Below, in pieces: positions 9,906 through 62,818 of a stretch of 64,000 nt of DNA. The notes beneath the pieces are model-generated. The model saw nothing but the letters and a program-made list of their open reading frames with translations. It had not been told where the DNA came from and searched no databases. How positions within the stretch are numbered: position 1 is the stretch's first letter; every line of letters starts with the position of its first letter. Source of the DNA: Candidatus Undinarchaeota archaeon (GTDB lineage: Archaea; SpSt-1190; JASMDC01); assembly GCA_964519305.1 (NCBI GenBank), contig CAZFHY010000007.1:32001-96000 (forward strand). Direction: 5' to 3'. The position numbers were made by a program, and so were the translations under genes.

Positions 9906-10057
9906 CTACTATCTTGATGTTTCGGCTAATGCTTAAAAAACCAACCCGCGGGCCTATTCTGTATATACGAACCCAACCATACTTATATAACGGTTTATTA
10001 CTAGTGTCTCGTTCAGTGATAGCGGGGACTATATTTGGCCGACGCCGACACGTGCGA

Positions 10058-22572: not shown

Positions 22573-22706
22573 AGTGACGTAATCGTCACAGAGATACCTA
22601 TCCTGCATAGGACCATCCTTGACCGTAAGGGGATTTCGAGCTGGTAGTATTATTTCCTAGTTAACGTCCTATAAGGGATTTGTGCCCCTCTTCGCCCTCC
22701 GCGACA

Positions 22707-22718
22707 ACTTTTTATACC
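22707..22718 (+). promoter_or_regulatory. TATA box of the + strand giant-protein operon (probably leaderless)
   Basis: ACTTTTTATACC about 24 nt upstream of ATG 22740. Confidence 0.6.
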
Positions 22719-22739: not shown

Positions 22740-25511
22740 ATGAGGCAGAGGTATGTTCTACTGTTGTTGATAACCCTCTCGCTCATCGCTCCGTTCGCCG
22801 GGGCGGTGGCCGCCGAGAGCATCCGCGAGGAGGTGACATTGACACGGCTAGACCGGTTGGAGGCGACCGTCGAGTTCATATTCTCGAAACGACAGATGGA
22901 CTCCATACAGGAAGAACACGTAAGGATGATCTGCAACCGGGCCCACTTCTCCTCATGCGATGCAGTTGTCGATAGGCTCCATAACGCCATCACGGTTACG
23001 GCCTCCATGCGACCTACAATCGTTATCGATACCGTTGAGGACGCAGGTGGAGGGAAGCTTCGTGCGGTCTTCGCTCATAGGTACGCACCTCTGCAGCATG
23101 TCCTGGCCACGCGAGTTAGTACCCAGAACACCCGCCTAACCATCCACTATCCTACCCATTCTTTCTCATTCGACAAGCCCGTGATGGAGGAAATGAGGAA
23201 CACCTTCACGATAACCTTCAATCACCAGCCCTTCCCGTTCGATTTCGGGACGGCCCTCGCGAGCTCGAACGAGGATCTGATCGTTGGCGATACCATAGAC
23301 ATCCCGGAGATGCACGGGGAATTGTGCTATTCTGCCCTATTTTTCGGTACGACGAAGGTATTCCATACGACAACCGTTGGTTGCCAGAAGATGTACCTGC
23401 CCAGCGGAGGTGCACCGACCGGAGTGGAGCCAGCTATCCATGTCCTCTCCTATTCAAAGGACAATGTACAGTATTCTACCTTCGGTCCGGAGGACGTTCC
23501 CATCGAGCCCTCTTCCATGGCCCTCGCCCTTTCGCTCGAGCAACGCGTGATCAAGCTCGGCCGTCCGGTCCGAATCGACATCACGACCGATGAGGAAGCC
23601 GAATGGTGTGAGGTGGTAATCATGGACAGCCTCCTTAATCCTCTTGGTACGGTTAGGTACGAATCTTGCGATGAGATCCTTGTGGGCACTAGGACGTCGT
23701 GGTTGCCCGGGCTCCATTATTTCAGGGTGACCGTTCACGCTGGTTCCAAGCATGCGTCCGCGTCCGAATCCGTTACGCTCGAACCTTCAGGTCATGAGGA
23801 GGGACCAGGATTCGATGTGGAGAAGGACGTGTTCACAGCAGGTGAGTCCGTGACCCTGCATTCATCCTTCCGTGGTAGGGGCCTCTACTGCACTACGCGT
23901 CTCTACGATCTCGAGTACAACCTGGTTTCAGAAGTGGACTCGTTCGGATGCGAACGCGCCACTGTAGACCTGGACGAGACACTAGCAGCAGGCAGTTATA
24001 TCATCAAGACCGATATGTACGAAAAGGGACGGCTAAAAGGATTCGAGTCCACCATCATCCAGATCAAGCCATGGAGCCCTCTTCCAGGTACGCTCATGGA
24101 GCGGTTATGCTCGGGTTCGTTCTTCAGGTTGGAGGACGAACGCATACCTTGCCTCGTACCTGGAAGGACATGTACACCGACCTCGCTCCAATTACCGCTG
24201 TGCCTGTGCTTTGACAAGAGCGGCAACGTAAAGGACAGTTGTAACTATGCGGATGTCTGTACAAAGGACGGTTGTCGCGAGCGTGCGATACCGCCCTACA
24301 CCGTTATCATGGACGGGACCAAGTGTGTTGCTAGGCGTGGAACACATGTACTGCCATGCGTCGGACCGGGAGAGCTCTGCTCAGGTTCGTGCTTATGCGT
24401 GGACAGGTTCCGATCACCGATCTCTACATGTAATGAGAACTCTCTATGCACACCGACCGGTTGTAGCGCACCAGAGATTGTGTTCGATGTCGAGGAAGTG
24501 GAGCCCGTCTCCGCACGTCGTTCGGATCTTGCGAACGGAATAGACATGACCTGGCACGGCGTGCTCAAATACCACGACCGTATCACGGCCGGAGAGGGAT
24601 TCACCGTCCGCTCGCGCCTCGGAGATGCTGATGAGAGCGCGACCATCGATGCATCGGGTGATGGACGAGTCACAGTTTACACACACCTGGCGACACAACT
24701 CAAGGAGGGGGAGACGGAAGCCTATCTCCTGTTCGAGAGAGAGGAGGCGAAGCTCCTTGTGAAACGACAGTTCTCGGTACAGTACGATGATCCGGGATTG
24801 CTGTTCGAGATCGTGGACGTTGAGCCGGAGGCGCTCGATGCTGAACGACTTCGTGGTGAGCAGTCGCTGCGTGTGCGTATGCGCGTGTATGACGAGCAAG
24901 GCCATGATGTAGTGTCACTCCCCATCTCGGCGTTCGATATGGTCGTCGACGGCGTGCTTGTCCGTTCGATCTCAGCGAAGTTCATCGACGACATGTGGAC
25001 CGTGGTCGGAACGCTCTGGGCGGAGGATCTCCCGCCGGGGCCGAGGCGACTGACATTGTCCGTGGACCACCTAGGACGATCGCGCAAGATCGAACGCAGC
25101 ATCGATGTGATGCGAAAGGCACCACTCGACGTGAGCATCATGAAGGTCGATCCGGGTACGAAACAAAAACCGCTCTTCCTCATGATCGTCGGTATCGGGT
25201 TCGATATGGATGTCTATGTTGAGCTACAAGGGTCCGAGAGCCTGAGCAAGAACGATGTGACCATTTCACTGAACAAGAAGGACATCTCCGATACGATCAC
25301 ATATATCGTGAGCACGGCCAAGGGGCCGAAGATACACCTCTCCAACGTCCGGCTCTGCCCCGACCATCCCCCTCGCCCGAACAGCGAGATACCGTTCGAG
25401 GTACAGATACGAACGGGAGATGAGACGGCCAGCGACAAGACCCGACTGGTCGTCCGGGGGAATCCCGGCGATTGGTCGAACCTGGGACAGACGGGGTGTG
25501 ATGCCCGATGA
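22740..25511 (+). CDS. Component A: secreted multi-Ig-like protein with duplicated central Cys-rich module
   Basis: Signal peptide MRQRYVLLLLITLSLIAPFAGAVAA; beta-rich Ig-like segments; paralog of 48357-51140 (shared GNPG-W-N C-terminus and PGT..PLF motif). Confidence 0.8.
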   Translation: MRQRYVLLLLITLSLIAPFAGAVAAESIREEVTLTRLDRLEATVEFIFSKRQMDSIQEEHVRMICNRAHFSSCDAVVDRLHNAITVTASMRPTIVIDTVEDAGGGKLRAVFAHRYAPLQHVLATRVSTQNTRLTIHYPTHSFSFDKPVMEEMRNTFTITFNHQPFPFDFGTALASSNEDLIVGDTIDIPEMHGELCYSALFFGTTKVFHTTTVGCQKMYLPSGGAPTGVEPAIHVLSYSKDNVQYSTFGPEDVPIEPSSMALALSLEQRVIKLGRPVRIDITTDEEAEWCEVVIMDSLLNPLGTVRYESCDEILVGTRTSWLPGLHYFRVTVHAGSKHASASESVTLEPSGHEEGPGFDVEKDVFTAGESVTLHSSFRGRGLYCTTRLYDLEYNLVSEVDSFGCERATVDLDETLAAGSYIIKTDMYEKGRLKGFESTIIQIKPWSPLPGTLMERLCSGSFFRLEDERIPCLVPGRTCTPTSLQLPLCLCFDKSGNVKDSCNYADVCTKDGCRERAIPPYTVIMDGTKCVARRGTHVLPCVGPGELCSGSCLCVDRFRSPISTCNENSLCTPTGCSAPEIVFDVEEVEPVSARRSDLANGIDMTWHGVLKYHDRITAGEGFTVRSRLGDADESATIDASGDGRVTVYTHLATQLKEGETEAYLLFEREEAKLLVKRQFSVQYDDPGLLFEIVDVEPEALDAERLRGEQSLRVRMRVYDEQGHDVVSLPISAFDMVVDGVLVRSISAKFIDDMWTVVGTLWAEDLPPGPRRLTLSVDHLGRSRKIERSIDVMRKAPLDVSIMKVDPGTKQKPLFLMIVGIGFDMDVYVELQGSESLSKNDVTISLNKKDISDTITYIVSTAKGPKIHLSNVRLCPDHPPRPNSEIPFEVQIRTGDETASDKTRLVVRGNPGDWSNLGQTGCDAR

Positions 25512-27346
25512 GCGCAGGGATCGAACGCCGTGGTCAGTTCACGCTCATAGGTCTTGCAGCAATCGCTCTCGTAGTGCTCATGATCGTCATGTTCACGCTC
25601 AAGGGGACCGAGGCCGATCGGGACCGTCGCATAACTGAGAGCGAAGCAATGGATATTTCGCGGGTCCTTGAGAAGGAGACCCGGTTCCTCGAGGGTGTTC
25701 TTGAAGATGCTGTTGCGTCCGCCGTGTTCGAGATGGGGCAGAACGGCGGGTACACGCTGGAGAACAGGCCCGGGCTCAAGCATATGGGCATCCCCTACCT
25801 GTTCTATCAGGGGCATGTCGTGAACGTACCCACGGTCACAGTCATGGAGGACATGCTCGCAGAGGAGGTCGAGCGTAGGGTCACCAACGCGATCGAGAAG
25901 CATAAGGTCCAGCTGCGAAAGGAGAAGCGTACCTATTCCTTCGGTCATCCCGTGGTAGGGGGCATCATCGAAGAGACCGGATGTCGTATCGATCTGAGCG
26001 TACCGATCGTGGTGGAGGCAGAGGACGGAACGATGCATGCATCATCCACGATCGAGTTCACCCACGTGAGCCCTCTGCGGATAGGTCATCTGCGTAAGCT
26101 GGCCGAGGAGTACGTCCAGAACTACAACCAGCTCCGTTTCATGGAGATGGGGATTCTGGCAGGTATCCGGGAGGACGCCCGTATCTGGGAACCTCCGGGA
26201 AGGCTCATGCACTCGGTATCTTGTGAGAATCCCCCATACAAGGGGAAAGATGAGATGGTGACGCCGTTCAGGGAGAACTGCCAGCTATCGGTGGCACGTG
26301 AGCTCAAGCGCATCCGTAACCTCTTCCGTGAGGACCGACATGTAGAGTGGAACCTCGACTTCAGGCCCACCGACACCGATTTCACCTTCGTGGCGGAGAA
26401 CGATAAATATGGGTACGAGACAGAGCGTATCTATCTAGTTCCTCAGATGCTCGCACCATTCTCACCACGGTCGGACGTATGCATCTCACACTACGAAGTG
26501 ACCTATGAGCTGAGCTGGCCGGTACTGGTATCACTTATCGACCTGCTTCCAACGGCGAAGGTCGTGGGCGGTTCGGGTTCCGCCCTTATCAAACCGCTAG
26601 AGTTCCAGTTCTATCTGGAACCGTATCTAGGGACCAACGAGGACGGGTCCGTGAACACACGTGCCGTTAACGAGTCCGTCGATGCTCCTTCACAGGTCGA
26701 TAGTAAATGCGCCGGTTCATGCAAGCTCGATCTGACGTTCACCAACTCGAACAACGGGCGGGTATGGCTCGATACATGCGCATTCTCCTACGACGGTAGC
26801 AAGCTGTACGAGGAAGAGGTCACCTGCGGTGTGCACACGCTGGTCGCAGCCGATGCCACTGACCCGACCCTTGGCAGGTTGATTAAGAGGGTGAACCTTC
26901 AGGACAAGCTCGAAGCGACCTACACGATCCCGCCTGCGATAACGGTGGAAGGGACCGTGTACGAAGAACAGCGGACCTACTGTGAGATGTCAGGTACCCT
27001 TACTTCACCGAACAACGTTCCGATCGTAGCCCGGGGTGGTGCACCTCCAGCTTACATCGAGGTACTGCTCATTCCATTAGAGATCGGACTGGGTGATGTG
27101 CAGTACGCTGCGGCCGATAATTCAGCACATTACTCGTTCCCGCAGGTGACACCTGGCGAGTACTGGCTCGTTGCCCGGTCCACTCCTGATGCGGACGGAC
27201 ATCCCCTCATCGCTGTGGACCCGGAAGGGAGGATAGTCAACATAAATGCTGACTCGCGAAGGATCGACGTAATCATGAAGCCGCTCCAGATCGCGTTCGT
27301 CCATGGCAAGTACGAGCGCGTCTCGGAGGTGAACGACGCGTGCTGA
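25508..27346 (+). CDS. Component B: large pilin-like protein with class III signal peptide
   Basis: ERRG/QFTLIGLAAIALVVLMIVMF; EMGQNGGY...IPYLFYQG..VNVPT motif; C-terminal beta domain (VTPGEYWLVAR); ATGA overlap with A. Confidence 0.8.
   Translation: MSAGIERRGQFTLIGLAAIALVVLMIVMFTLKGTEADRDRRITESEAMDISRVLEKETRFLEGVLEDAVASAVFEMGQNGGYTLENRPGLKHMGIPYLFYQGHVVNVPTVTVMEDMLAEEVERRVTNAIEKHKVQLRKEKRTYSFGHPVVGGIIEETGCRIDLSVPIVVEAEDGTMHASSTIEFTHVSPLRIGHLRKLAEEYVQNYNQLRFMEMGILAGIREDARIWEPPGRLMHSVSCENPPYKGKDEMVTPFRENCQLSVARELKRIRNLFREDRHVEWNLDFRPTDTDFTFVAENDKYGYETERIYLVPQMLAPFSPRSDVCISHYEVTYELSWPVLVSLIDLLPTAKVVGGSGSALIKPLEFQFYLEPYLGTNEDGSVNTRAVNESVDAPSQVDSKCAGSCKLDLTFTNSNNGRVWLDTCAFSYDGSKLYEEEVTCGVHTLVAADATDPTLGRLIKRVNLQDKLEATYTIPPAITVEGTVYEEQRTYCEMSGTLTSPNNVPIVARGGAPPAYIEVLLIPLEIGLGDVQYAAADNSAHYSFPQVTPGEYWLVARSTPDADGHPLIAVDPEGRIVNINADSRRIDVIMKPLQIAFVHGKYERVSEVNDAC
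27325..27332 (+). promoter_or_regulatory. Shine-Dalgarno for C1
   Basis: GGAGGTGA 7 nt before GTG 27340. Confidence 0.7.
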
Positions 27347-30300
27347 AAAGGCCTCATGGCCAAAAAAAGTATGCGTTGGTATTCGTACTACTGTTCATTA
27401 TAACGACCTCAGCCCAGGCAGGGCTCGTACCCATATCCGATAAGTACGCGGGTGGCGCAAAGAACATGTGCAAGACCTGCATACAGTGCGTGGATACCGA
27501 GGGGGAGGAGCAGAAGAGCTGTCTCATGGGCTGTCTCAAGGCGGGTGTCGACCTGCTGCTCGGACCACTGTGCGGTAAGATGTGCAAGGACAGCAAGATC
27601 TGCAACGGTCTGTGCGGTAACTGCATCCCATGCGCGTTCGAGAAAGGGGATGCGGCAGAGAAATGCCTTGTGAAGTGCGTTGGTGAAGCTCTCATCATAG
27701 GACCTATCTGTGGTAATGTATGCAATAAGACCGTGAGCCAGGACTGGATGAACGGTGCGGAGAAGTGCGAGGGTGCATGTACCGAGTGCGCTTCATGTGT
27801 GTTCGAGGAGGGTGGTGATGCCCAGGAGAAGTGCGCGCTCAACTGTGTCGTGAAGAACATCCTGCTCAATCCGCTCTGTGGAAAGGCCTGCTCGAAGGCC
27901 GGGGGCGATCCCAAGGGATGGGAAATATCGGAAAGTGACTCGGCAGAAGAGCAGGCGAAGAAGAAGGAGGCCGCAAAGGAAGGCGCCAAGGCGGTAGGGC
28001 AGTGCGAGTCCATCTGCACCACGGCCGTTGAATGTGCCCCCTGCGCCTTCAAGAACACTGGAAGGGAGAAGGCGGCCTGCGGAGTCTCATGCGTCGTCGG
28101 TAACTTCATATGCGAAAAGTCCTGTCGCAGTATATGCGATGATCCGAAAGCTTATCTGACCGAAGAGGAGAAGAAGGCTGAGAAGGACAAGAAAGGACCG
28201 AAGAAACCATCAATGACCGATTGCACGAGCAATTGTCTGTCTATCTGCGGCACCTGCAGTCAGTGCGCGAACCAGAAGACCGATTCGGGGCTGAAGGAGT
28301 GCCTTATCAGGGAGTGTGTAGGTAAGAACCTGATCAAGGTCGCATGCGAGAACCTCTTCGTGGGCCCCATGGTGCAGAAGTGCCTTGAGTGCGGGAAGTG
28401 TGCAGCAGAACCAAAGGAGCTCCGGTCCACGTGTCTGAAGGATTGTGTCGGTCGACAGCCGTTGGCCTTCGATATCTGCGAGACCGTGAGCTGTGATCCC
28501 ATCTGCTCGGGCCAGCGCACTGAGGAATGTCGGAAGAAGTGCGGCGGGAGCGACACGTGCGTGGACGTTTGCATCCAGGACTGCAAGGTCGAATGCCTGG
28601 ACCTATGCCATGCTTGCGGCCGGTGCGGTTTCGAGGGCACGAAGGAGGCCATGCACGAGTGCACGATACGATACTGTATTCGGCCATTCATGATGACGCC
28701 CATCTGCGAGGACTATTGCTCTGAAGTGATTAAGGGACTGCGGCCGGAGAACTGCATGGCCATATGCATGCAATGCGAGGATGCGATATTCTCTGTGGAT
28801 TGTGTGACCAGAAAGAGCCAGGTGCGACCTCTTCTTGTGCAATGCATGTTCCGTGACGTGTGCGATGAGCGATGCGACGAACACTTCGAGAACGTGCAGG
28901 AGGCGGACGAGTGCAAGGCCAACTGCGACAAGTGCAAGCACTGTGCGAACGAGGATGATTATAATGTCCAGAAACAGTGCATGGAGGACTGCTTCGGTTC
29001 CCTTTCGGTGAAGGCCGAGTGCTCGGACCTCTGCGTGGAGTGGGGCGTGGCCGCGGGCGACGCTACGCTCAGGTGTCGCACCCTTTGTGCGGCCTGCGTT
29101 CGATGCGATGGAGAGACCGATCCGGCGAAGAAGAAGAACTGCCTCCGCAACTGCACGATGACCCAGATGGAGGATTACTACGGCGAGCGGTGCGACAGTG
29201 TATGCCAGGACCAGGACGATGTGCCGACCTGTCGTGACAAGTGCATGAAGTGCGACAGCTGCCCCTTCGAGGGCGACGGTCAGAACATCACGTCATGTAT
29301 CCTGAACAAGTGCGTCGACTCCATCTCAGTGGCACGACCGATCTGTGAGGACGTGTGTGAGAACGAGCAGAACAAGGCCACATGTATTCAGGGCTGCGTC
29401 AAATGCCCCACATGCGTCGAGTACGATACACGACGCAAGCGCATTGACTGTTTCACCGAATGCATCGCACCGGACATCCTAGGTAGTCAATGCGACTCGC
29501 TCTGTATGGAGCGACCCAACGTCACCGGATGCAAGCAACGGTGCCGTAATTGTCACCTGTGCATGGACAAGACCGGTGACTCACGCTTTAGATGCCTCGA
29601 ACGATGTGCGGACCGGGGACAACTCCGCTCTTCGTGCGAAGGTCATTGCGAGACGGCCAAAGACCCGGTCTATTGTCAGAGCGCGTGCATGACCTGTCCC
29701 CAGTGCGACAAGCTCGAGGGCACGGAGCTTGACTCGTGCATACAGGAATGCACTGGGATAGTCACCCGACAGATGCTATTCGACACGTGTGATGACCTGT
29801 GCGCATCTTACCAAGATCCGGATCGCTGCAAGGCAGCATGCGACGAGTGCACAGATTGCGACATGGGTGCCGGACAGTACGATTGCCTGCAGGATTGCGT
29901 GGATGCGACGGACCCGGGTCTGGACTTCTCTGATAAGGAGAAGGAACGGCGTGAAAAGCTCAAGAAAGGATTGCTATCCGGTGTTTGCGACCTCATGTTC
30001 GGCAATATCTGGGACATGTTCTCCTGTGACCTGGTATGCGCGATGGGTGGTCCTTGCCCGATCCCTGACCAAAGATATCTTCTAAAGTGCCCCGAGACAG
30101 CTCAGGAGAACCTCTACCTCTACTACTCTGACCTTATCACATACTTCGAGAACGTAGCTGAGTTCTACGCGAATATCGAGGCGGCCCTGGACGCCATACT
30201 CTTGGGTACGGCGGGGATGTGCGGTATGTGCAACTATCAGCTGGCCATGATACAGGGGGCGTACAGCACGTGTAGCGGCGTCTGGAATCCCACGCCCTTC

Positions 30301-46565: not shown

Positions 46566-46572
46566 CGCGCTA

Positions 46573-48360
46573 TTAACATTCCTCACGACGTGAGATAGGA
46601 ACGTAAAGGTCACCAATACGTTCTGTGAGCAATGGCTGGAGTACCACGTCCTTTCGGGTATTGTCCCCTGAGGTGATCTTCACAAGGGAAACGTCCACTT
46701 GGGCCAGATACGTCGGAGCACCCGATGCGTCAAGTGAAGGCCTAGCAACGCGGAGGTAACGCCCGGGCTCTGCTCGTTCGAGGATGTAATATCCGTCCTC
46801 ATCGACTATCGCACGGAGAAGAGGTCCGGGGCCAAGGGGTGCGAAGAGCAGCTCGATGTATTGGTCAACGCTCCCTTTGACATAACCGAGAGGCTCACTG
46901 GACCGCTCCTCTACTCTGTGATCGTTGGTACAGAGAACGGTCGAGTTGAGGTACACACGGCCTACGACCTTACCAAATGGCTCCATCGTAATGGTCTCGG
47001 AAAGTGTGTCCCTGATGTTACGCTCAAGGGTTACACGTGGCAGACCTGTAGGATCCGTGGATCCGATGATGATCGAATGGATGCCGCAAGGTACATCGTT
47101 CGCACGGAGCATACCGTCCGTGTAAGGATAAGAGCAGGCGTCAACGGAAACGGTCCCCGTGCGCGATCCTTCTATAGTGAGCTCGATCGAGCAAGGCCCA
47201 GTACAGGGATCATCGATTGTGGAAGGATGGCCTTGGTCGTCCTGGGCTTCAGTATTCTCGCCCATTAGGAGCGGGCGCATGTAGAACACCAATTCAAGCG
47301 TGTTTGACACATCCGTTCCTGATCCTCCTATCACACGATAGGCTTTATGGACATCTCTCAGAACCAAGCGGAGCGGGAAGTCAATGTTGTAGGATACCGT
47401 ATACCGCCCCATGCACTTATCGCTGGCCACGTCGACGAGGGGCATGGAGGTCGGGACTATGTGTATTATCTTCTTGCTCTCATACCCTTCAATACCTTGG
47501 TTCGCCAGCATAGTGAAGTTGACTGCGAGCACGGTCATGGAATGGTCCCATTCGAGCGATGGATACTCGAGAGCGTCGTTCGCGAGGACTATGGTGCGAG
47601 CTACGGCCAACCGTACGTTATCCCTTACAGGCTCGATGAGCTGGTCCCTTTCACGTAATACGGTCCGAGTGCTGCAAGGAGTTGTGCCCGCCACTAGGCC
47701 CGGTGGTGATGGGATGCGCTCATCGTTGATTATCCCCGTGAGTAATGTCCCTTCCATGGTCCGGTTCCTTTCATAGTCGGTAATGAACGACCGGGCGGTC
47801 TGGAGGAGCAGCCCGAGCCGGAGTGAATAGGTCCGTGTTACTGTGACGGTGTCCTTAGCCACGGTATCGTCAGTGCGTACGCTTGAAGGTATCGTGAGCT
47901 CCACGCTGATATCTTCCACGGCGATCTCAATCTTGACGGAGGGTTCACCGACCTCAATCCGTTCATGGAGCTTATTCGCCGAGAGAGCGTTGCCAATAAG
48001 GACCTCCAGTCTGCGAGCGAGCATCTGCTCCACAACCGAGTCCGTGGGGACGTTGATGACTTTACCCCTGTAGAATAGATAGGGCACTCCGTTCACGCTC
48101 AGCTTAGGTGACATACCTGCGGGGAATCCACCGTGAGCCCCTACTTCGATTATTGCATCTGCAAATGACTCGTCAAGGATCCCCGCTATCATCGCTTGTA
48201 CATCGATGAGCTCGTCCCGCGTCTCCGTGGCCTTCTGGTGCTCCTGACGCACCTGACGTTCGACCTCTCGGGACTGTGAGGTCATGTAGACCATCGTGAT
48301 AATCAGAATGACCGTAGCGGCAAGGGCAATCAGGCTGATCTGAGCGCGATGTGTTCTCAT
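46573..48360 (-). CDS. Component B': pilin-like protein, paralog of B
   Basis: THRA/QISLIALAATVILIITMVYM class III-like signal; EVGAHGGF...VPYLFYRGKVINVPT; ends in Cys like B. Confidence 0.8.
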   Translation of the reverse strand: MRTHRAQISLIALAATVILIITMVYMTSQSREVERQVRQEHQKATETRDELIDVQAMIAGILDESFADAIIEVGAHGGFPAGMSPKLSVNGVPYLFYRGKVINVPTDSVVEQMLARRLEVLIGNALSANKLHERIEVGEPSVKIEIAVEDISVELTIPSSVRTDDTVAKDTVTVTRTYSLRLGLLLQTARSFITDYERNRTMEGTLLTGIINDERIPSPPGLVAGTTPCSTRTVLRERDQLIEPVRDNVRLAVARTIVLANDALEYPSLEWDHSMTVLAVNFTMLANQGIEGYESKKIIHIVPTSMPLVDVASDKCMGRYTVSYNIDFPLRLVLRDVHKAYRVIGGSGTDVSNTLELVFYMRPLLMGENTEAQDDQGHPSTIDDPCTGPCSIELTIEGSRTGTVSVDACSYPYTDGMLRANDVPCGIHSIIIGSTDPTGLPRVTLERNIRDTLSETITMEPFGKVVGRVYLNSTVLCTNDHRVEERSSEPLGYVKGSVDQYIELLFAPLGPGPLLRAIVDEDGYYILERAEPGRYLRVARPSLDASGAPTYLAQVDVSLVKITSGDNTRKDVVLQPLLTERIGDLYVPISRREEC

Positions 48361-51140
48361 GGGGCACCACCACGCATGTTCTTCCAGTTGCCGGGATTAC
48401 CTTCGAGCATCAGGGGGACACTATCGCTCAGTTCTCCCCCCGGTGAATCCATGGTCACGGTCAGTTCCAGAGATCGCCCACGTGACGGACCTGGAGGGAG
48501 CCTGATCCGGGTGAGGTGTAGCTTCACGCCTTTTTCAGTGCTCACCGAGTGGGATAAGGCCTTGGTGATATCCGTTCCGTCCAGAGTGACAGTGAAGTCG
48601 TCCTCGCTGATCGTGTCCAAGGAAGAGAGTGTCAGGTGGACCTCTATCGAGAAACCTACCGAAAGGAGGAGATTGAACAGAGGCCTATCAGCGGTCCCCG
48701 GATTGATATGAGATATGTGCATGGCTGCAGGAGCATCGCCCACTACGTCCATGAGCATCCGCGCTGCTCCGTTCCGACCGAATGACCAGACCGAGACCTT
48801 GATGTAGTTCGAGGCCGGTGGTGATGATGACTGGAATGTCGCGATCACGATCCACGTACCCGACTCGTGATCATAGGACGCGCTCGAGAACACCGGTTCC
48901 AGTTTATCGAGGGAGATATCGATGTCATCAGCGCTGAGACCCTCCACAGGATTCCCTGACTTGTCGTTGACCTCGAGCTCAAGTCGGATGGAGACACCCT
49001 GTAACAGGTCCGCAGCGTCGATACGCGACGGGGTGAATCGACGGACCTTGACGGTCAACTCGCGGTCTTCAAGTGGGTAGAGTACTTTAATGGCCCTTCG
49101 TACAGCGGAAATGCGTTCGCGATGATGTATTTCGACCACAGCATCATAGTCTCCAGGGGTTATTCGGCCCTCCACTGGAAGAGAGATGCTCCACATGGTC
49201 CCAGTAACGTCAACGGTGGCGTTCTGGGGCTGGAGGAAACCCACCCGTCCTAATGAGCTGACCTCTCTAGATGAGGAGGAATCAAGAGGCACGTCCTCGA
49301 ATCGAACGATTCCGGTCCAAGTTAAGGTGATGCCGTCAGCGATATCGGAGCTGGAGACTTTATTTGGTGTGAAGATCCGTGTCTCGAACTCGAGCTCGGT
49401 CTCGATGCATCCTTCAAGGGTGCATGTCTGACCGGCGTTGCATGACGAGATCGGGCCTCGTTCATCCATACAAAGACAGTGTCCGGAGCACACTTCACCG
49501 AGCGTGATGCAATCGAACTCCTTGCTCCCTTGACGTGCTTTGCATGAACCGGGGATCTGAACGATGATATAGGGTGACGTGCGTGGTTGTGGTTGGCACC
49601 CGTGCGGATCACAGATATCAGTTGGTCGACAAGCGGCAACTGGCTCACCACTGTTATCGAAGCAGAGGCAGCCGGGGATGGACGTCGAAAGCGCACTACA
49701 GTGCTGTCCCTCTAGAAGGCAAGCGATTGGCTCGCCATCCACCAGGAACGAACCCCTATGGCAGAGGGACTCCATGGGCGAACTGACCACGGGTTCCCAC
49801 TCTTGTACCTCGATAACACGGGATGCCATTCCCGTGAGCCTCCCATGGGAGTAGACGCGCGCCTGAACTATATAGGGCCCCGGAGAAATGGTCTCGTCCA
49901 GACTGATGCTACGCTCACCGCACCCTTCGGTCCGCGTTACAGCGTTCAGCTCATCATCGAGAACGGAGGTCTCGCACGACTCACCCGAGCTCTCGATCTT
50001 GACCACTACGTCATCACCAGGTCGATAGTCCTCGCGGTCAACGACGATCTCTGCATGGTCCGGAGCAAGACCTACAAGATCGACAGGAACGGTCACTGTG
50101 CTCATCGCCCACCAGGTTATCCCTGTGATACGGACCTGATAGCGTCCAGGGACCCATGTGGTGGACGTGCCCAGTGCCATTCTTGAGCAGTCCTCGAACT
50201 CTGAGCGTGCGATTTCACCCGTGTCCGGGGACACCAGAGAGATCTGGCATCGATCGATCTGCTCTTCCGTGGTCACTGAGATTATAATGGGCTCTCCAAG
50301 GCTGAGACCGTCACTCTGTAGGTCGACCTCGAAGGGGAGCTCTTGTTTGTTGATTGTGACAGGAGATGTCCCGAAATCTGCCTTGCCGGTGTCAAGGGAG
50401 AGCATTACGAGCTCGTAGGTACCCGGTGCGGTCCCCTGAGGAACGGATAGAAAGAAGGATTCGCATCCCTGCGAGGATGAGAGGACTATGACGTTGTCAC
50501 CGTCCATAAGGGCCCCGATGCAGAGGATACCGTCAGTAGACGGCAGATTGATTACATCCCCCGAGTCATAATAACCACCAGGGACATCGACCTGAAGTTG
50601 CCTCGTATCCTCGTTCACCACGAACGTGGATCTGATTGGTGTATCGAGCGGCCCCCCGATGATCGTCTCATGAGATGGATAACGTATGATGATCTCACGG
50701 CTGGACGCAAATATCCCGGGGGAGATCGTGAACTGAAGCGGACGATAAGTGAGGGCGAAGGATGTGGATGCCTGGCCGTCAGTGAGCTGGAGGTCCTCGA
50801 CAGTGATTCCCCCTGGGACCACTACAGTGAACACCACTCGTCTTTGGAGAGTGTCAACCAAAGCACCGCACGAAAGCGCATGTGGTAGCGTGGTGCATCG
50901 ACGTTCGAGAGATGACTGCTTAGGCAGTTCTCCGTCGTCCGGGAATGAATATGTAAGGATGGTCGTGATATAGGAAAGGGATGACACGTCCACTTCCTCG
51001 AGAAGTGAAGGTATCGTTGCTGCCGAAGATGGCAGGAGCAGGAGGATGAGGCAGATAAGGAGGACATTGACGAATGGCTTGCGGGGACATGGACTACCTT
51101 TGTACTTCGCTCGCCAGGAAGTACCGCATGTCTTGGTCAT
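48357..51140 (-). CDS. Component A': secreted multi-Ig-like protein, paralog of A
   Basis: Hydrophobic signal VLLICLILLLLPSSAA; MESLC..CLCFDNSG..; GNPGNWKN C-terminus. Start set at ATG 51140 (GAGGG upstream). Confidence 0.8.
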   Translation of the reverse strand: MTKTCGTSWRAKYKGSPCPRKPFVNVLLICLILLLLPSSAATIPSLLEEVDVSSLSYITTILTYSFPDDGELPKQSSLERRCTTLPHALSCGALVDTLQRRVVFTVVVPGGITVEDLQLTDGQASTSFALTYRPLQFTISPGIFASSREIIIRYPSHETIIGGPLDTPIRSTFVVNEDTRQLQVDVPGGYYDSGDVINLPSTDGILCIGALMDGDNVIVLSSSQGCESFFLSVPQGTAPGTYELVMLSLDTGKADFGTSPVTINKQELPFEVDLQSDGLSLGEPIIISVTTEEQIDRCQISLVSPDTGEIARSEFEDCSRMALGTSTTWVPGRYQVRITGITWWAMSTVTVPVDLVGLAPDHAEIVVDREDYRPGDDVVVKIESSGESCETSVLDDELNAVTRTEGCGERSISLDETISPGPYIVQARVYSHGRLTGMASRVIEVQEWEPVVSSPMESLCHRGSFLVDGEPIACLLEGQHCSALSTSIPGCLCFDNSGEPVAACRPTDICDPHGCQPQPRTSPYIIVQIPGSCKARQGSKEFDCITLGEVCSGHCLCMDERGPISSCNAGQTCTLEGCIETELEFETRIFTPNKVSSSDIADGITLTWTGIVRFEDVPLDSSSSREVSSLGRVGFLQPQNATVDVTGTMWSISLPVEGRITPGDYDAVVEIHHRERISAVRRAIKVLYPLEDRELTVKVRRFTPSRIDAADLLQGVSIRLELEVNDKSGNPVEGLSADDIDISLDKLEPVFSSASYDHESGTWIVIATFQSSSPPASNYIKVSVWSFGRNGAARMLMDVVGDAPAAMHISHINPGTADRPLFNLLLSVGFSIEVHLTLSSLDTISEDDFTVTLDGTDITKALSHSVSTEKGVKLHLTRIRLPPGPSRGRSLELTVTMDSPGGELSDSVPLMLEGNPGNWKNMRGGAP

Positions 51141-51154
51141 CGTTGTTCCCTCTG

Positions 51155-54100
51155 TCACGAGATGATACACCCGCACGAGCAGTCCCCGGTAAGCATCTCA
51201 CAAGATTGTGGATCGAATGAGAAACTGCAGTACTGGGCGCAGTCCTCGCACGCTAGAGCTAGTTTGCATGACTCGCTCGAAATAGTGGTCGCGATCTTTC
51301 CTGGTCGTTGTGACATCTCCACCAAGCCCACGTCCAATCGGGCGTACGGGAACAAGTTACGGTCCCCCAGGAGGTCAAGCCAGCTTGAACCAGTGGTGGT
51401 CTCTGCCAGAACTAGGAGCTGGTAGCCCTCGCCCGACTGAGCTGTGAATGCTGGTGTAGACAGGGATATTGACTGTCGTGATGCGAGTGAGATACCACTC
51501 TCCATGGCGAAAGCATCGTTGTAGACTCCATCATCATCGAGCACACGTAGCGTGATGTCACCGTCGAACACTATCGGCTCAGTGTTGATTATCGTGGCGT
51601 GCCCTTGGGCCCATCCCTCGATGAATAGACGGTTGATCTTCTGATCAATGTCATCGGTGAAGAACATGTCCCTCAACGTAAGTTCAGGTCGGACCACCTC
51701 CAAGGATGCATCCTGATACAGGGAACGGAGGTAGGCTACATTATCATTGCACCTGACCGTCATGTTATCAGCGTTGCACGCGGACACAACCATCCCTTGG
51801 GATTGGAAGCGAGCAGAGAGCACGAGCGAACCACCGCTCAGTAGATCGGCACCCATTTCGATAGTCCCGCCGACCATTGAATCCGTGAGCTCGAAGGGCT
51901 CTGTCTCAAGCGAGTAGATACCAGGGCCAGACACGGACATGTTCGTGATAGACGTCTTAACGGGGCCGTCCTCGTCAAGTGCAACGACAAGTCCCGTGAG
52001 TGGGAATTCGGTCGTCGCCAGCTCTACTACACCAACGACTGTCTCGCCAGGGTAGATCTGTGTGATCCGCTCACCCGTTGTTGTAGTGAAGTACACATCG
52101 AGCACGGTGATGTTCTCCATCGTGAACACTGCACAGAGCTCACCCTCTCCACGTCCAATGACCCCTGACGCTCCGCTGACCTCGCCCCTCGGGTATAAAG
52201 TGGTGTTCTCAAGGTCAGATGCGATGAGGAAAGGTTGCGCTGTGATGGATACGGTGGCGTCAGGTAGTAGCATACCTAGGTCGTGGTTGGCAGTGAGGGA
52301 TTGGAAGCGTTCATCGCATGGACAAGCACATTGCTGGTCCGTTCCGCACTCATCACAATGGCAGTCTGACAGGATGCGAAGATCGATGGCCAAGGAACCG
52401 CTGACCGACAACAGCCCACGGTTGCGCACGGTGACGCCTGCTCGCACCGTCTCGTCCAGGTAAAGTGCTCTGACTGGTCGTCCGCTCCTGAGGATGGCGG
52501 GTCTGATGTCCAGGTCGGGCGCCAGTGCATGGCACATGCGCTCGCATGTTTCAGTACCGTCCTCCCGCCGACACCGAACACGACATCCCTGGACGGTCGG
52601 ATCAACAGCGGCCTCGTGGACAGGAGCATCGCGACATCGTTCCACACACCGGACCTGAAGAGTTGCGTTCGTCGGGAACCGGTCCAAGCATGCCACTTCG
52701 CATGTGGGACCAAGGGCCAGACACTCCGCTGTGATAGCTTCTTCCTCGAAGCCATCGTAGCAGCACATACCGGTCGGTGAGGTCACCGTCTGACATCGGT
52801 CGAAGAAAGGTGACGGGATCTGTTCGGTCAGGGGAAGACACTCCTGGTCGGGATCGAGCGGGGGACGGGTCCAGTCCAGCGCCATGGTCGTGTTGAACAA
52901 CCGGGAACAGCACCCGAGGGCCTGAAGCTGTTTGCTGTGGCCTACCGTTGTGCATGGAGCGTGGGTCGTCGTCCATCCGGTCCCGGCCTCGCATACGCAT
53001 ACACCGGCCTGCGCATGGCAATGGGAGGCGGTAGAACCGTGACATCTCATGCAGACCACGGAGCAGTCCTGATGCGGAGTGTTGTATGCCAGGCAAGCGC
53101 CATCACCCACGAATATCTCTTCTGTCACCATACCCGCGATAGTGGCCACGACCATCGTTGCAGCGCTATTGTACCGGTCGAGGTTCGGGATGGAAAGGGT
53201 GTAGGACAGGTCCTCCACACTGCATGAGCCGCACCACGAGGGTCCGCCGCCCATTGGCATCCCGGGAGGACCACCGCCACCAGGTATGTCTATCGTAAAC
53301 GTCTCGATGATGTCCTCCGGTTCCCCGACGAGCCACGTGAAGAATCCCATGGGGGGTCCGAAGACCGAAGGGAGATAGTCGTAGTATCCGGCATCCGGGT
53401 CAAGGAAAATGTTAGCGGGATCGACAGCGTTCTGTATATAGTCCACGCCCTGTTGCGCCGGTGTCTTATCTCCCTCACGGACGGTTTCGATCACCTTTGT
53501 CTTATTCTCATCACCCGGTTCGCAACAGTACTGGCAGTCATGGGCCACTCCTGAACCACCACGACCGGTGCATTGCCGGTCGCTACATCCATCCCCCTCG
53601 CAATGCATCGCGTTCGCCGCCAGCCATGCCTTGCATGATGGCTTGCAGGCACCGGCCAACCACTTGCACCCGGGCGAACGCTGCTCGCACGCTGCCTTGT
53701 TGGGATAGTTACACGCTTCTGCATCCTCATCGTCCTCTGTCACAGGCTCGCGGTCGAAGCATGGTCCGGACGCGTACTGCCGGCAGTGACTCTTCCAGCC
53801 GCTCCCGCCTGTAAGCCCGACACCCACGGCCCTCGCAGGTCCCTCTCCCCGACCGATGTCCGTGAACACGCTCGGATCTGCAAGGGTGGCGATGACAGCA
53901 CGCATTTCGGTCTGGAAGCTGGTAATGTTGTAGTCGTCTGTGGTGAACGATGCGCCGATCGTGGACTCAAGGCGCTGAAGGTCCTCTTCGATGCGGTCAG
54001 GTGTCAATCCGCTCGCCGTAGCCTCGCGCACCCGTCCGGCCATGTCGTCCATCGTATCGGCGAGCTCGGGTAGGAGGGGGATCACGGTCCCAGAAAGGTA

Positions 54101-54793
54101 GCCGTTGAGTTCTTCCACCGTCTGTGCAAGATCGCATACGTTGGCATTCTTACCGAAAGTGCATACATCGTTGATAGCGTGGACCATTCGGGAGCACTCC
54201 AACACTTTCACGGGGGCAGGAAGGCTCTTATCATGGGAATCGCAATCATGTCCCTTGCGTTCGGGGATGTTCTCGCAGAGGACACATGAAGAGCTACTAC
54301 CACTGCAACGGGCCCTCGCTGCAATTCCACAGACCTTTGGTTCCACGATACTGGTCGGTGCCAGTTCGAGACCGCTCCCGCAGTGGGGATAATCTGCCGA
54401 GATGAACTCGTTCCTTACCTGGATGCATAAGGTACACTGGATCCGTAACGCTTGGGTAAGCAGCTCCAGATCCTCGCTCATAGCACCGTAGAACGCGTCA
54501 GCTCGCTCGTAGAACGCTTTGCCCTCTTCGAGATAGTGCACGATGTTGGTGTATGGGCGCGCCGAACAGTCCATTAGCGCAGCATTCAAGGGAACTGCAG
54601 TGTCATTGATGATCACTCCCCCTCTAACAGGGAAAGGCATCTGACAGGCACTACCGCTAGTGTAGTCTATCGCCATCGGCGTGGGTGATGGAGTCGGGGT
54701 GGCATCTTCACTACAAGTCGGCGATATGATAATGAACGCAATTATGACTAGGATCAGGGGATTCTGCCATTTCACATAGGATCTCAGGCCCAC
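51155..54793 (-). CDS. Component C4: shorter divergent C-family Cys-rich secreted protein (1212 aa)
   Basis: Gapless 51-aa match to the C1 helical block; shared TGxCC motif, Ig-like domains and 8-Cys C-terminus; lacks the N-terminal repeat array. Confidence 0.82.
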   Translation of the reverse strand: MGLRSYVKWQNPLILVIIAFIIISPTCSEDATPTPSPTPMAIDYTSGSACQMPFPVRGGVIINDTAVPLNAALMDCSARPYTNIVHYLEEGKAFYERADAFYGAMSEDLELLTQALRIQCTLCIQVRNEFISADYPHCGSGLELAPTSIVEPKVCGIAARARCSGSSSSCVLCENIPERKGHDCDSHDKSLPAPVKVLECSRMVHAINDVCTFGKNANVCDLAQTVEELNGYLSGTVIPLLPELADTMDDMAGRVREATASGLTPDRIEEDLQRLESTIGASFTTDDYNITSFQTEMRAVIATLADPSVFTDIGRGEGPARAVGVGLTGGSGWKSHCRQYASGPCFDREPVTEDDEDAEACNYPNKAACEQRSPGCKWLAGACKPSCKAWLAANAMHCEGDGCSDRQCTGRGGSGVAHDCQYCCEPGDENKTKVIETVREGDKTPAQQGVDYIQNAVDPANIFLDPDAGYYDYLPSVFGPPMGFFTWLVGEPEDIIETFTIDIPGGGGPPGMPMGGGPSWCGSCSVEDLSYTLSIPNLDRYNSAATMVVATIAGMVTEEIFVGDGACLAYNTPHQDCSVVCMRCHGSTASHCHAQAGVCVCEAGTGWTTTHAPCTTVGHSKQLQALGCCSRLFNTTMALDWTRPPLDPDQECLPLTEQIPSPFFDRCQTVTSPTGMCCYDGFEEEAITAECLALGPTCEVACLDRFPTNATLQVRCVERCRDAPVHEAAVDPTVQGCRVRCRREDGTETCERMCHALAPDLDIRPAILRSGRPVRALYLDETVRAGVTVRNRGLLSVSGSLAIDLRILSDCHCDECGTDQQCACPCDERFQSLTANHDLGMLLPDATVSITAQPFLIASDLENTTLYPRGEVSGASGVIGRGEGELCAVFTMENITVLDVYFTTTTGERITQIYPGETVVGVVELATTEFPLTGLVVALDEDGPVKTSITNMSVSGPGIYSLETEPFELTDSMVGGTIEMGADLLSGGSLVLSARFQSQGMVVSACNADNMTVRCNDNVAYLRSLYQDASLEVVRPELTLRDMFFTDDIDQKINRLFIEGWAQGHATIINTEPIVFDGDITLRVLDDDGVYNDAFAMESGISLASRQSISLSTPAFTAQSGEGYQLLVLAETTTGSSWLDLLGDRNLFPYARLDVGLVEMSQRPGKIATTISSESCKLALACEDCAQYCSFSFDPQSCEMLTGDCSCGCIIS

Positions 54794-62763: not shown

Positions 62764-62818
62764 GATGATACACGATCGAAGGTGCGGGCGAACGCTTATA
62801 TTCGTGATGGCGGCGTGC

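What the first reader, a model, noticed from the sequence alone, without database searches (positions are those of the whole stretch)
22740..54793. Two convergent paralogous operons encoding a candidate pilin-anchored giant disulfide-rich surface system
Seen: A-B-C1-C2-C3 (+) and C4-A'-B' (-) are tightly coupled by ATGA overlaps or short gaps, and they meet 7 nt apart. A/A', B/B' and C1-C4 are mutually homologous, so the same three-component module occurs twice. All eight proteins have export signals. Only B/B' have class III pilin-type signals, and no A or C protein has a C-terminal TM anchor. Inference: B is a membrane or pilus-incorporated anchor, A an Ig-like adaptor, and C an interchangeable displayed adhesin or host-contact protein. 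I recognise no named system with this architecture.
Basis: partly seen in the sequence, partly recalled or inferred. Interest (0 to 1): 0.92.

Follow-up and report, generated by a model that had tools for sequence, protein, structure and literature searches.

The report
Pilin-like anchor pairs with giant proteins
An archaeon related to the tiny DPANN archaea carries many copies of an unannotated gene pair, one member with a pilin-type export signal, often beside huge cysteine-rich secreted proteins; it is probably a modular cell-surface display system of a kind not yet described.

Summary
Eight genes sit at the stated coordinates with the stated overlaps and a 7-nt stop-to-stop gap. A/A' are 28% identical and B/B' 32%, both over the full length. 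C1-C3 are 48-55% identical. C4 shares only the C-terminal third with them. Each protein has one hydrophobic segment, at the N-terminus.

The genome holds 22 A and 22 B genes, almost always adjacent, which duplicated as a unit (Mantel r 0.93). It also holds 22 giants with one conserved C-terminal 8-Cys tail, 14 of them beside an A-B pair.

No Pfam, NCBIfam, PHROG or PDB sequence match exists for any of them.

B carries a conserved R-[GA]-Q class III (prepilin-type) signal. It belongs to an unannotated family found in 29 of 399 other archaeal genomes, all small, and there too next to 1000-2000-aa secreted proteins.

A, B, C1 and C2 are under purifying selection (dN/dS 0.06-0.08). The right-hand operon is missing in the sister species.

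Best reading: B is a pilin-like membrane or filament anchor, A is its all-beta partner, and C is exchangeable cargo. Binding, cleavage and function remain untested.

The parts
22709..22716 (+). TATA-like box TTTTTATA, 24-31 nt upstream of the A start codon. This is a possible archaeal promoter for a nearly leaderless A-B-C1-C2-C3 transcript.
   Evidence: Sequence read. The promoter role is inferred and not tested.
22740..25511 (+). A: a 923-aa secreted all-beta protein. It has an N-terminal Sec-type hydrophobic segment, about 10 beta-sandwich domains, a Cys-rich double module at aa 457-575 and a conserved C-terminal GNPGxWxN...C tail.
   Evidence: No Pfam, NCBIfam, PHROG or PDB sequence hit.
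25508..27346 (+). B: a 612-aa protein with a class III-type signal (MSAGIERRG|QFTLIGLAAIALVVL...). The model shows a 72-residue N-terminal helix, an alpha/beta head, beta-sandwich domains (CnaB-like by weak Foldseek matches) and an invariant last-residue Cys.
27340..33843 (+). C1: a 2167-aa protein with 207 Cys (9.6%). It has a signal peptide and about 17 repeats of an 8-Cys unit (aa 44-853, nt 27469-29898). A conserved middle region follows, then an acidic E-run (aa ~1390-1440) and six 6-Cys repeats of ~34 aa (aa 1441-1638, nt 31660-32253). The C-terminal module (aa ~1745-2125) shared with the other C proteins ends in an 8-Cys tail (aa 2130-2162, nt 33727-33825).
33853..40146 (+). C2: 2097 aa, 205 Cys, 55% identical to C1, with the same architecture.
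40143..46565 (+). C3: 2140 aa from ATG 40143 (2150 aa from GTG 40113), 48% identical to C1, with the same architecture.
46573..48360 (-). B': 595 aa with a class III-type signal (MRTHRA|QISLIALAATVIL...). It is 32% identical to B and 61% identical to the B of the contig C15 locus.
48357..51140 (-). A': about 927 aa from ATG 51140 (939 aa from GTG 51176). It is 28% identical to A and 55% identical to the A of the contig C15 locus.
51155..54793 (-). C4: 1212 aa, 69 Cys (5.7%), with a signal peptide. It shares with C1-C3 the C-terminal module and the 8-Cys tail, plus one weak mid-region match. Its closest paralog is the 1565-aa C of the contig C15 locus.

Best explanation
The region holds two copies of a lineage-expanded cell-surface module.

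B is made with a class III (prepilin-type) signal. A prepilin peptidase would cut it after R-G/A. The long hydrophobic N-terminal helix then either keeps B in the membrane or feeds it into a short type-IV-filament-like stem, built by one of the genome's pilus ATPase/platform sets.

A is a Sec-exported string of about ten beta-sandwich domains, translationally coupled to B. It forms a fixed pair with its own B, giving a stalk or adaptor.

The C proteins are Sec-exported giants. Their variable, Cys-rich N-terminal parts are the displayed working surface, probably for binding cells, particles or polymers. Their conserved C-terminal module and 8-Cys tail attach them to the A-B pair.

What is shown: gene structure, paralogy, a single N-terminal hydrophobic segment in each protein, the conserved class III motif, co-duplication of A with B, the shared C tail, purifying selection, and presence of the peptidase, ATPase and platform genes.

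What is inferred: cleavage of B, the A-B and A/B-C contacts, disulfide bonding, surface location and adhesive function.
For: 1. Real genes. Between this genome and the sister species G001, dN/dS is 0.071 for A, 0.057 for B, 0.084 for C1 and 0.078 for C2. Five flanking genes give 0.044-0.109.

2. A-B unit. The genome has 22 A genes (21 full-length) and 22 B genes (21 full-length plus one internal fusion), adjacent in nearly all cases. For 18 matched pairs the Mantel r is 0.926, with 0 of 5000 permutations reaching it, and the nearest-paralog choice agrees in 13 of 18.

3. Class III signal. R-[GA]-Q followed by about 20 hydrophobic residues occurs in 18 of 20 aligned B paralogs and [GA]-Q in 12 of 14 relatives from outside. 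The same RGQ motif heads two pilin-like genes in a canonical ATPase + 2 platform locus on contig C18.

4. Machinery in the genome. There are 4 Peptidase_A24 hits, 6 T2SSE hits and 7 T2SSF hits over the curated cut-off. The closest paralog of the window's A-B pair (34-37% identity) lies directly behind a T2SSE-family ATPase and a ~9-TM protein.

5. B model. pLDDT is 85.4 and pTM 0.74. It shows a helix over residues 7-78, then an alpha/beta head with a 4-strand sheet, then beta-sandwiches.

6. Link between B and C. One 2638-aa giant with the C tail contains the B head (profile positions 55-472) fused in-frame. The 8-Cys tail occurs in 22 giants, 14 of them in one gene string with an A-B pair.

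7. B family elsewhere. It is found in 29 of 399 other archaeal genomes, all 0.6-1.6 Mb. In 11 of the 12 stretches fetched from 10 of these genomes, B lies beside an ORF of more than 700 aa with an N-terminal hydrophobic segment; in 9 of the 12 that ORF is 1000-2000 aa.
Against: - No pilin family HMM matches B.
- Foldseek found no pilin fold. It found only generic CnaB/Ig sandwiches with TM-scores of 0.15 or less.
- B does not match the C18 pilin-like proteins beyond the signal motif.
- Only 1 of the 22 A-B loci sits next to an ATPase.
- 8 of the 22 C-tail genes lie away from any A-B pair. 13 of the 22 A loci have no canonical C-tail neighbour, though 5 of those have another ORF of 1000 aa or more beside them.
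- The A and C families were not found outside the genus. The A profile found nothing in 12 B-containing stretches from other genomes, and hhalign of A against the ~1000-aa neighbour family there gave probability 0.1. The trio is therefore not an old conserved system.
- 0 of 15 genomes of the same class have B.
- A 600-aa subunit is large for a filament-forming pilin.
- There is no expression or proteome evidence.
- The organism appears to live in anoxic water, judging by the title of a close relative's record. Extracellular disulfides are therefore an assumption, and the Cys could bind metals instead.
Confidence: 0.45

Rival explanations
1. Two-component S-layer or surface-coat paralogs. B is a membrane stalk and A the outer canopy subunit, analogous to SlaB/SlaA of Sulfolobales. 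The 22 pairs would be alternative coat variants, and the C giants would be unrelated co-located surface proteins.
For: The gene order, with a large all-beta protein followed by a smaller anchor with overlapping stop and start, resembles slaA-slaB (that order is recalled, not tested). Foldseek aligned B to SlaB 8qox_B (E 2.4e-5, 216 columns). It aligned A to S-layer proteins, among many Ig arrays (7ptp_A, rank 43; 8s80_A by sequence, E 0.023).
Against: B's only hydrophobic segment is N-terminal and carries a class III motif, whereas SlaB is, as recalled, anchored by a C-terminal TM helix. The TM-scores are 0.12-0.16, which is generic sandwich similarity. Twenty-two diverged pairs (23-61% identity) are far more than known coats have. 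The B-head fusion inside a C-tail giant and the C adjacency argue that C belongs to the unit.
Confidence: 0.15
2. B is a plain signal-anchored (type II) membrane protein that is never cleaved or polymerised. A-B-C form membrane-tethered complexes independent of any type IV filament machinery.
For: 21 of the 22 A-B loci have no adjacent ATPase or platform gene. No pilin HMM or fold match was found. B is large, at about 600 aa.
Against: A mere TM anchor would not need R-[GA]-Q directly before the hydrophobic stretch. Yet that motif is kept across paralogs of only 23-37% identity and in distant relatives. The genome has four A24 peptidase genes. Class III proteins encoded away from the filament genes are known from the bindosome (passages of PMC13705601 read).
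Confidence: 0.2
3. The C giants are extracellular metal- or redox-active proteins, using Cys-ligated clusters or metal scavenging in anoxic water, rather than adhesins. A-B would be their anchor or assembly factor.
For: C1-C3 have 205-207 Cys, including 12-13 CxxCxxC and 51-55 CxxxC motifs, in a regular 8-Cys unit of ~49 aa. A close relative's record title points to an oxygen-deficient marine source.
Against: No Fer4 or other cofactor family hit at E of 0.1 or less. There is 1 CxxCH motif in C1 and none in C2 or C3. The signals look Sec-type, without a consistent twin-arginine motif (read). Paired CxxxC motifs are also typical of disulfide-stapled helices (recalled).
Confidence: 0.12

Closest known systems
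Archaeal type IV filament systems functionalised by class III-signal proteins (the Sulfolobales bindosome and SPIII binding proteins; PMC13705601, passages read)
   Same: Many non-pilin-sized proteins share a conserved class III N-terminus. They are encoded away from the ATPase/platform genes, next to their functional partners. A few base machineries sit elsewhere in the genome.
   Different: The known cases carry substrate-binding domains and sit beside ABC transporters. B has no known domain and sits beside A and the giant Cys-rich proteins. Supplementary figure S10 of that paper, on DPANN loci, could not be seen.
Modular minor pilins, such as Streptococcus sanguinis PilB (PMC8179133; seen only in the search listing and abstract)
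   Same: A pilin-type N-terminus is followed by extra globular modules that give the filament an adhesive function.
   Different: That pilin is bacterial, a single gene within the pilus locus, with recognised modules. Here there are 22 copies, an obligatory partner A, no family match, and no proof of incorporation into a filament.
Large adhesin-like proteins in archaeal T4F loci (system 2; arCOG05616 in subsystem 4G; PMC13705601)
   Same: Large Ig-fold proteins are encoded together with class III-signal proteins.
   Different: Those lie inside complete T4F loci in Thermoproteota and Methanobacteriati. A and C here lie outside such loci in 21 of 22 cases and have no family match. arCOG membership could not be tested.
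SlaA/SlaB S-layer of Sulfolobales (PDB 8qox)
   Same: A pair of adjacent genes encodes a large all-beta protein and a smaller sandwich-rich membrane anchor. There is a weak Foldseek hit between B and SlaB.
   Different: The anchor polarity is opposite: B is N-terminal and class III. The copy number is 22. There is no sequence similarity.
Giant surface proteins of DPANN archaea (the 'SPEARE' type of nanohaloarchaea; PMC10266531, passages read)
   Same: Very large Sec-exported Ig-rich proteins in DPANN-related archaea, thought to contact other cells.
   Different: Those are single proteins of 5000-9400 aa with a VirB4-like ATPase domain. The C proteins are 1200-2200 aa, Cys-rich, without any known domain, and come with A-B.

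Membership tests
Type IV pilin-like / class III signal peptide proteins (for B) | A short charged N-region, [KR]-[GA] just before the cleavage site, then about 20 hydrophobic residues. The motif is as recalled from Szabo et al. 2007, a paper that is not held. | tested here: met
   R-[GA]-Q plus a hydrophobic stretch occurs in 18 of 20 paralogs and [GA]-Q in 12 of 14 outside relatives. There is a single N-terminal hydrophobic segment.
Type IV pilin-like / class III signal peptide proteins (for B) | A match to a pilin or archaellin family model such as Pfam Pilin_N. | tested here: not met
   No Pfam family at E of 0.1 or less apart from a sub-threshold Phage_fiber_C hit (E 0.087). No NCBIfam hit.
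Type IV pilin-like / class III signal peptide proteins (for B) | A long N-terminal helix packed against an antiparallel beta-sheet head. | tested here: inconclusive
   The model has a helix over residues 7-78 followed by a 4-strand sheet at 143-188. Foldseek listed no pilin. The aligner libraries that might have found a domain-level match were not available.
Type IV pilin-like / class III signal peptide proteins (for B) | A prepilin peptidase, an assembly ATPase and a platform protein are present and linked to the gene. | tested here: inconclusive
   The genome has 4 A24, 6 T2SSE and 7 T2SSF hits over the cut-off. Only the contig C2 A-B locus lies directly behind an ATPase and a ~9-TM protein.
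Type IV pilin-like / class III signal peptide proteins (for B) | Cleavage by the peptidase and polymerisation into a filament. | not testable with these tools
   This needs N-terminal proteomics, a cleavage assay or imaging.
SlaA/SlaB-type S-layer (for A-B) | An anchor subunit with a C-terminal TM helix and coiled coil, and sequence or fold similarity to SlaA/SlaB. | tested here: not met
   B has no C-terminal hydrophobic segment. There are no PDB sequence hits. The Foldseek match to 8qox_B has TM-scores of 0.12-0.16 only.
Bindosome-type SPIII substrate-binding proteins (for B) | A substrate-binding domain and an adjacent ABC transporter. | tested here: not met
   B has no Pfam domain. Its neighbours are A and C, not transporter genes.
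Sortase-assembled Gram-positive pilins (top Foldseek hits for B) | A C-terminal sorting signal with a TM helix, and CnaB domains. | tested here: not met
   The similarity is restricted to beta-sandwich domains, with TM-scores of 0.15 or less. There is no C-terminal hydrophobic segment, and the organism is archaeal.
Ferredoxin-like or multihaem redox proteins (for C1-C3) | Fer4-type CxxCxxCxxxCP motifs or CxxCH haem sites recognised by family models. | tested here: not met
   No Pfam hit at E of 0.1 or less. CxxCH occurs 1, 0 and 0 times in C1, C2 and C3.

The most novel reading that the evidence does not exclude
A-B is a universal docking stalk, and the conserved C-terminal module with its 8-Cys tail acts like a dockerin. 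Any of about 22 very different giant proteins could then be mounted on any of about 22 pilin-anchored stalks, perhaps covalently through the conserved terminal cysteines of A, B and C. That would give a large-genome relative of the DPANN archaea a combinatorial, rapidly reshuffled cell surface for recognising partner cells or particles. The B family would be the long-missed common anchor for giant contact proteins across small-genome DPANN archaea.
Probability: 0.2. Interest if true: 0.88.

Novelty: new variant of a known kind. Interest (0 to 1): 0.74.

Why it matters
DPANN archaea live by contact with other cells, yet how their huge surface proteins are held on the cell is largely unknown. 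B is an unannotated family with a conserved prepilin-type signal, and it lies beside large secreted proteins in many small archaeal genomes. In this 3.6-Mb genome it has expanded to 22 copies, each with a dedicated partner.

If B is the anchor, one testable protein family would link the type IV filament machinery to giant-protein display in a whole superphylum. The A/B/C genes take up about 6.5% of this genome, and gene content differs between sister species. Both are typical of loci that decide whom a cell sticks to.

The 8-Cys repeat arrays, with about 200 Cys per protein, in an organism whose close relative's record title points to oxygen-deficient water, also raise a biochemical question. 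Either disulfides form outside the cell without oxygen, or these are extracellular metal sites.

Tried and rejected
Family and sequence searches
- Pfam, NCBIfam and PHROGs gave nothing for A, A', B, B' and C1-C4 (A', B', C2 and C3 went to Pfam only).
- PDB sequence profiles of A and B gave nothing below E 0.01.

Structure searches
- Foldseek gave only generic beta-sandwich arrays, with TM-scores of 0.17 or less.
- The 'pdb_via' and 'pdb_via_wide' libraries were not on the machine.
- The protein atlas gave unnamed DPANN clusters for B (scores 0.91-0.92; a lead only) and nothing for the C1 middle region.

Complex prediction
- The job used A 22-180, A 700-923 and B 79-612. It returned 'no answer': score 0.30 against a mark of 0.32, runs 0.53, 0.27 and 0.30, controls not run. 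It counts neither for nor against binding. The central half of A was not included.

Homology searches
- The word-based searches were insensitive here. B found 2 proteins, the A profile 2, and the C4 C-terminal part 3. They did not even recover the genome's own paralogs, so they say little about distribution.
I used the genome search instead.
- The A profile against neighbours of B-like genes in other genomes found nothing better than E 0.45. hhalign of A against the ~1000-aa neighbour family there gave probability 0.1.
- The B profiles against the two contig C18 pilin-like proteins gave E of 0.03 or worse.

Considered and dropped
- A phage or mobile-element origin: no PHROG hit, housekeeping flanks.
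- A periplasmic disulfide catalyst encoded next door: the thioredoxin gene at 20374-20781 has no hydrophobic N-terminus, as read in G001's ortholog. In G001, three genes separate A from the zinc-ribbon gene that directly precedes it in the window.

Not obtained
- Expression evidence: the look-up of sequencing runs was unreachable four times.
S10 Fig and the tables of PMC13705601, and the MAG tables of PMC10936187, may bear on whether such loci were noted before.

Literature searches that found no description of this module:
- 'Undinarchaeota / genome size / free-living'
- 'DPANN / cysteine-rich / giant / surface proteins'
- 'SpSt-1190'
- 'DPANN / class III signal peptide / pilin'

Full report
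WHAT IS THERE

The window is G000:C7:32001-96000, from a 3.63-Mb assembly of 42 contigs that is 99.8% complete. The assembly is archaeal: the archaeal SSU model scores 1508 bits over its full length.

Eight long ORFs fill 22740-54793.
- A/B: ATGA overlap.
- B/C1: 7-nt overlap.
- C1/C2: 9-nt gap.
- C2/C3: ATGA overlap, which makes ATG 40143 the likely C3 start.
- A'/B': ATGA overlap.
- C4 stop, then 14 nt, then the A' ATG at 51140.
- The C3 and B' stops are 7 nt apart.

A TTTTTATA box lies 24-31 nt before the A start. The flanks are ordinary genes: LarE/LarB/LarC-like genes, a PfkB kinase, two Na+/H+ exchangers, a thioredoxin, SAM decarboxylase, a rhomboid, MscS and PFK.

PARALOGY

- A/A': 28% identity, E 3e-127.
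- B/B': 32% identity, E 7e-95.
- C1/C2/C3: 48-55% identity.
- C4 matches C1 only over the last ~330 residues (E 1e-12), with one weak mid-region hit.

EXPORT

Each protein has one strong hydrophobic stretch, at the N-terminus, and none at the C-terminus.

NO KNOWN FAMILY

Pfam, NCBIfam and PHROGs give nothing. PDB sequence profiles give nothing below E 0.01.

THE MODULE IS GENOME-WIDE

tblastn, blastp and hmmsearch on the assembly gave these counts:
- 22 A genes: 21 full-length and one truncated.
- 22 B genes: 21 full-length, plus one B head fused inside a 2638-aa giant.
- Nearly always adjacent pairs, as A-B or, in five divergent loci, as B-A.

For 18 matched pairs, the A and B identity matrices correlate with r 0.926 (0 of 5000 permutations reach this). 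The nearest paralog agrees in 13 of 18. The pair therefore duplicates as a unit.

The C proteins are defined by a conserved C-terminal module that ends in an 8-Cys tail (C-x5-C-x2-C-x3-C-x8/9-C-x6/7-C-x-C-x-C).
- 22 giants carry it, and 14 of these lie in one string with an A-B pair, in the order A-B-C or C-A-B. The other 8 lie elsewhere.
- 9 of the 22 A loci have such a neighbour. Five more have another ORF of 1000 aa or more beside them.

The 66 A/B/C ORFs make up 234.6 kb, which is 6.5% of the genome. A mechanical count finds 115 ORFs of 1000 aa or more, totalling 601 kb. That count is an upper bound, because some are shadow ORFs. One example overlaps the C12 ATPase gene on the other strand.

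ANATOMY OF B

B paralogs start with a short basic stretch, then R-[GA]-Q and about 20 hydrophobic residues (18 of 20). They also share an invariant GG(Y/F) motif, eight invariant Cys, a DExGxYxFxxVxPGxY sandwich motif and a Cys as the last residue.

The AlphaFold model has pLDDT 85.4 and pTM 0.74. It shows a 72-residue helix (7-78), an alpha/beta head with a 4-strand sheet, then beta-sandwiches. The order helix, loop, sheet is that of pilins. That is my reading of the secondary-structure string, not a fold match. Foldseek returned only CnaB/Ig-type domains (SdrD, BcpA, streptococcal pilins, SlaB) at TM-scores of 0.15 or less.

ANATOMY OF A

A (pLDDT 82.1, pTM 0.49) is almost all beta. It has about ten sandwiches, a Cys-rich double module at 457-575 and a conserved GNPGxWxN...C end. 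Foldseek hits are macroglobulin, complement, titin and S-layer arrays at TM-scores of 0.1-0.17.

ANATOMY OF C1-C3

Each has 205-207 Cys, arranged as follows:
- About 17 units of C-x3-C-x2-C-x2-C-x11-C-x3-C-x10/12-C-x3-C, with a period of ~49 aa.
- A conserved middle region.
- A Glu run.
- Six 34-aa C-x8-C-x6-CC-x3-C-x6-C units.
- The shared C-terminal module and tail.

MACHINERY

The genome has 4 Peptidase_A24, 6 T2SSE and 7 T2SSF hits over the cut-off. On contig C18, an ATPase and two platform genes follow two pilin-like genes that also start ...RGQ. B profiles do not match those proteins beyond the motif.

The closest paralog of the window's A-B pair is on contig C2. It lies directly behind a divergent T2SSE ATPase (53.7 bits) and a 726-aa protein with ~9 TM segments. 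The other 21 loci have no such neighbour.

DISTRIBUTION

A full HMMER scan of 1.84 billion representatives with the B profile gave 7383 hits at E of 0.001 or better. Most of them match only the C-terminal sandwich repeat. About 27 of the best 150 are full-length, and about ten more proteins of 600-740 aa match the N-terminal half. None of the ten tested has a Pfam domain. One is an NCBI 'Nanobdellota archaeon' hypothetical protein, and two members come from Tara mesopelagic data.

These relatives keep [KR]-[GA]-Q (12 of 14) and the GGY motif.

Among 401 archaeal genomes, 31 match at E of 1e-5 or better. These are G000, its congener G001, and 29 others of 0.6-1.6 Mb. None of the 15 genomes of the same class matches (likewise).

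I fetched 12 stretches from ten of the 29 B-positive genomes. In most of them, the B-like genes lie beside signal-bearing proteins of 1000-2000 aa and a 4-6-TM protein of ~250 aa. Those neighbours form families of their own. They are unrelated to A and lack the C tail. Apart from Ig domains in one giant and a sub-threshold AAA_16 hit, they have no Pfam match.

A B ortholog at 94% identity lies on a public record titled 'Candidatus Undinarchaeales archaeon' MAG. The paper that mentions that MAG name says nothing of pili or adhesion ('pili' and 'adhesion' each occur 0 times in its preprint version).

SELECTION AND TURNOVER

The sister species G001 (about 85% nt identity) keeps A, B, C1 and C2 at 92.7, 93.6, 88.3 and 88.5% aa identity. 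Their dN/dS values are 0.057-0.084, against 0.044-0.109 for five flanking genes.

G001 differs in structure in two ways:
- It has three extra genes before A: 650 aa, 365 aa and a 1455-aa protein with 9.6% Cys.
- It lacks window 40401-53718, which covers most of C3, all of B' and A', and the 3' two-thirds of C4. The junction has a 4-nt microhomology.

A C4 relative at 80% identity does exist in other data. The genes are thus conserved as proteins but variable as content.

READING

The conserved class III motif, the peptidase genes, the single ATPase-linked locus and the bindosome precedent (PMC13705601) make a pilin-like anchor the best reading of B. The strict A-B pairing makes A its partner. 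The shared tail, the adjacency and the B-head fusion make C the attached cargo.

None of the contacts is shown. The one complex job gave no verdict (see Tried and rejected). Rival readings are a surface coat, a plain uncleaved anchor, and metal-binding C proteins. I put 0.45 on the main reading.

COMPARISON AND NOVELTY

The system works like a functionalised type IV filament or a modular pilin with associated adhesins. It is not a demonstrable member of any pilin, S-layer, bindosome or SPEARE family (see the membership table). I found no description of it in four literature searches. Supplements that might show DPANN loci were closed.

I rate it a new variant of a known kind, with an appreciable chance of being more than that.

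Noticed in passing
window 62819-64000 (-), continuing to G000:C7:100056: The 3' end of the window holds the C-terminal part of another giant ORF of 1745 aa with 13.0% Cys. It is not of the A, B or C family by BLAST.
   Followed up: partly
window 9914-13627 (+): A 1237-aa ORF with 3.0% Cys and only a sub-threshold DUF11 hit (E 0.001, 19.8 bits). It may be another large envelope protein.
   Followed up: no
whole genome G000: A mechanical ORF count finds 115 ORFs of 1000 aa or more, totalling 601 kb or 16.5% of the genome. Many have 5-15% Cys, including one of 8378 aa and one of 4130 aa with 15.4% Cys. Some are shadow ORFs, so this is an upper bound.
   Followed up: partly
G000 compared with relatives: The only same-genus genome is 3.8 Mb. 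All 15 same-class genomes searched are 0.6-1.2 Mb. This lineage is therefore a large-genome outlier among small-genome archaea.
   Followed up: partly
G001:C36 (L087-L089), against window 22572-22687 and 40401-53718: The sister species has a 7.6-kb insertion of three genes (650 aa, 365 aa and a 1455-aa protein with 9.6% Cys) before A. It also has a 13.3-kb deletion with 4-nt microhomology that removes C3 through to the 3' part of C4, and an extra 553-aa gene beside the junction.
   Followed up: yes
G000:C1:22048-29964 (L009): A 2638-aa giant with the C-type tail contains the B head (B profile positions 55-472) at residues 354-765. This is a natural fusion of a B domain with a C protein.
   Followed up: partly
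L075, L077, L079, L080, L081 (other small archaeal genomes): B-like genes there have a conserved neighbourhood with no Pfam match: a ~1000-aa secreted protein, a ~600-aa protein, a 4-6-TM protein of ~250 aa, B, and a 1500-2000-aa Ig-bearing protein. Those B-likes end in a P-x-[FIL]-[KRE] motif instead of a Cys.
   Followed up: partly
G000:C18:57024-63073 (-): A canonical type IV filament locus. It has two RGQ-type pilin-like genes (363 and 208 aa), a 665-aa ATPase and two T2SSF platform genes.
   Followed up: partly
G000:C1:44461-46677 (L010): A T2SSE-family ATPase with an N-terminal 4Fe-4S ferredoxin-type domain (Fer4, E 1.8e-7), followed by two T2SSF genes.
   Followed up: no
window 13921-16029 and 61657-62871: The window holds a LarE/LarB/LarC-like gene set (nickel-pincer cofactor) and an ATP-dependent phosphofructokinase (PF00365, E 4e-107) in an archaeal genome.
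   Followed up: no
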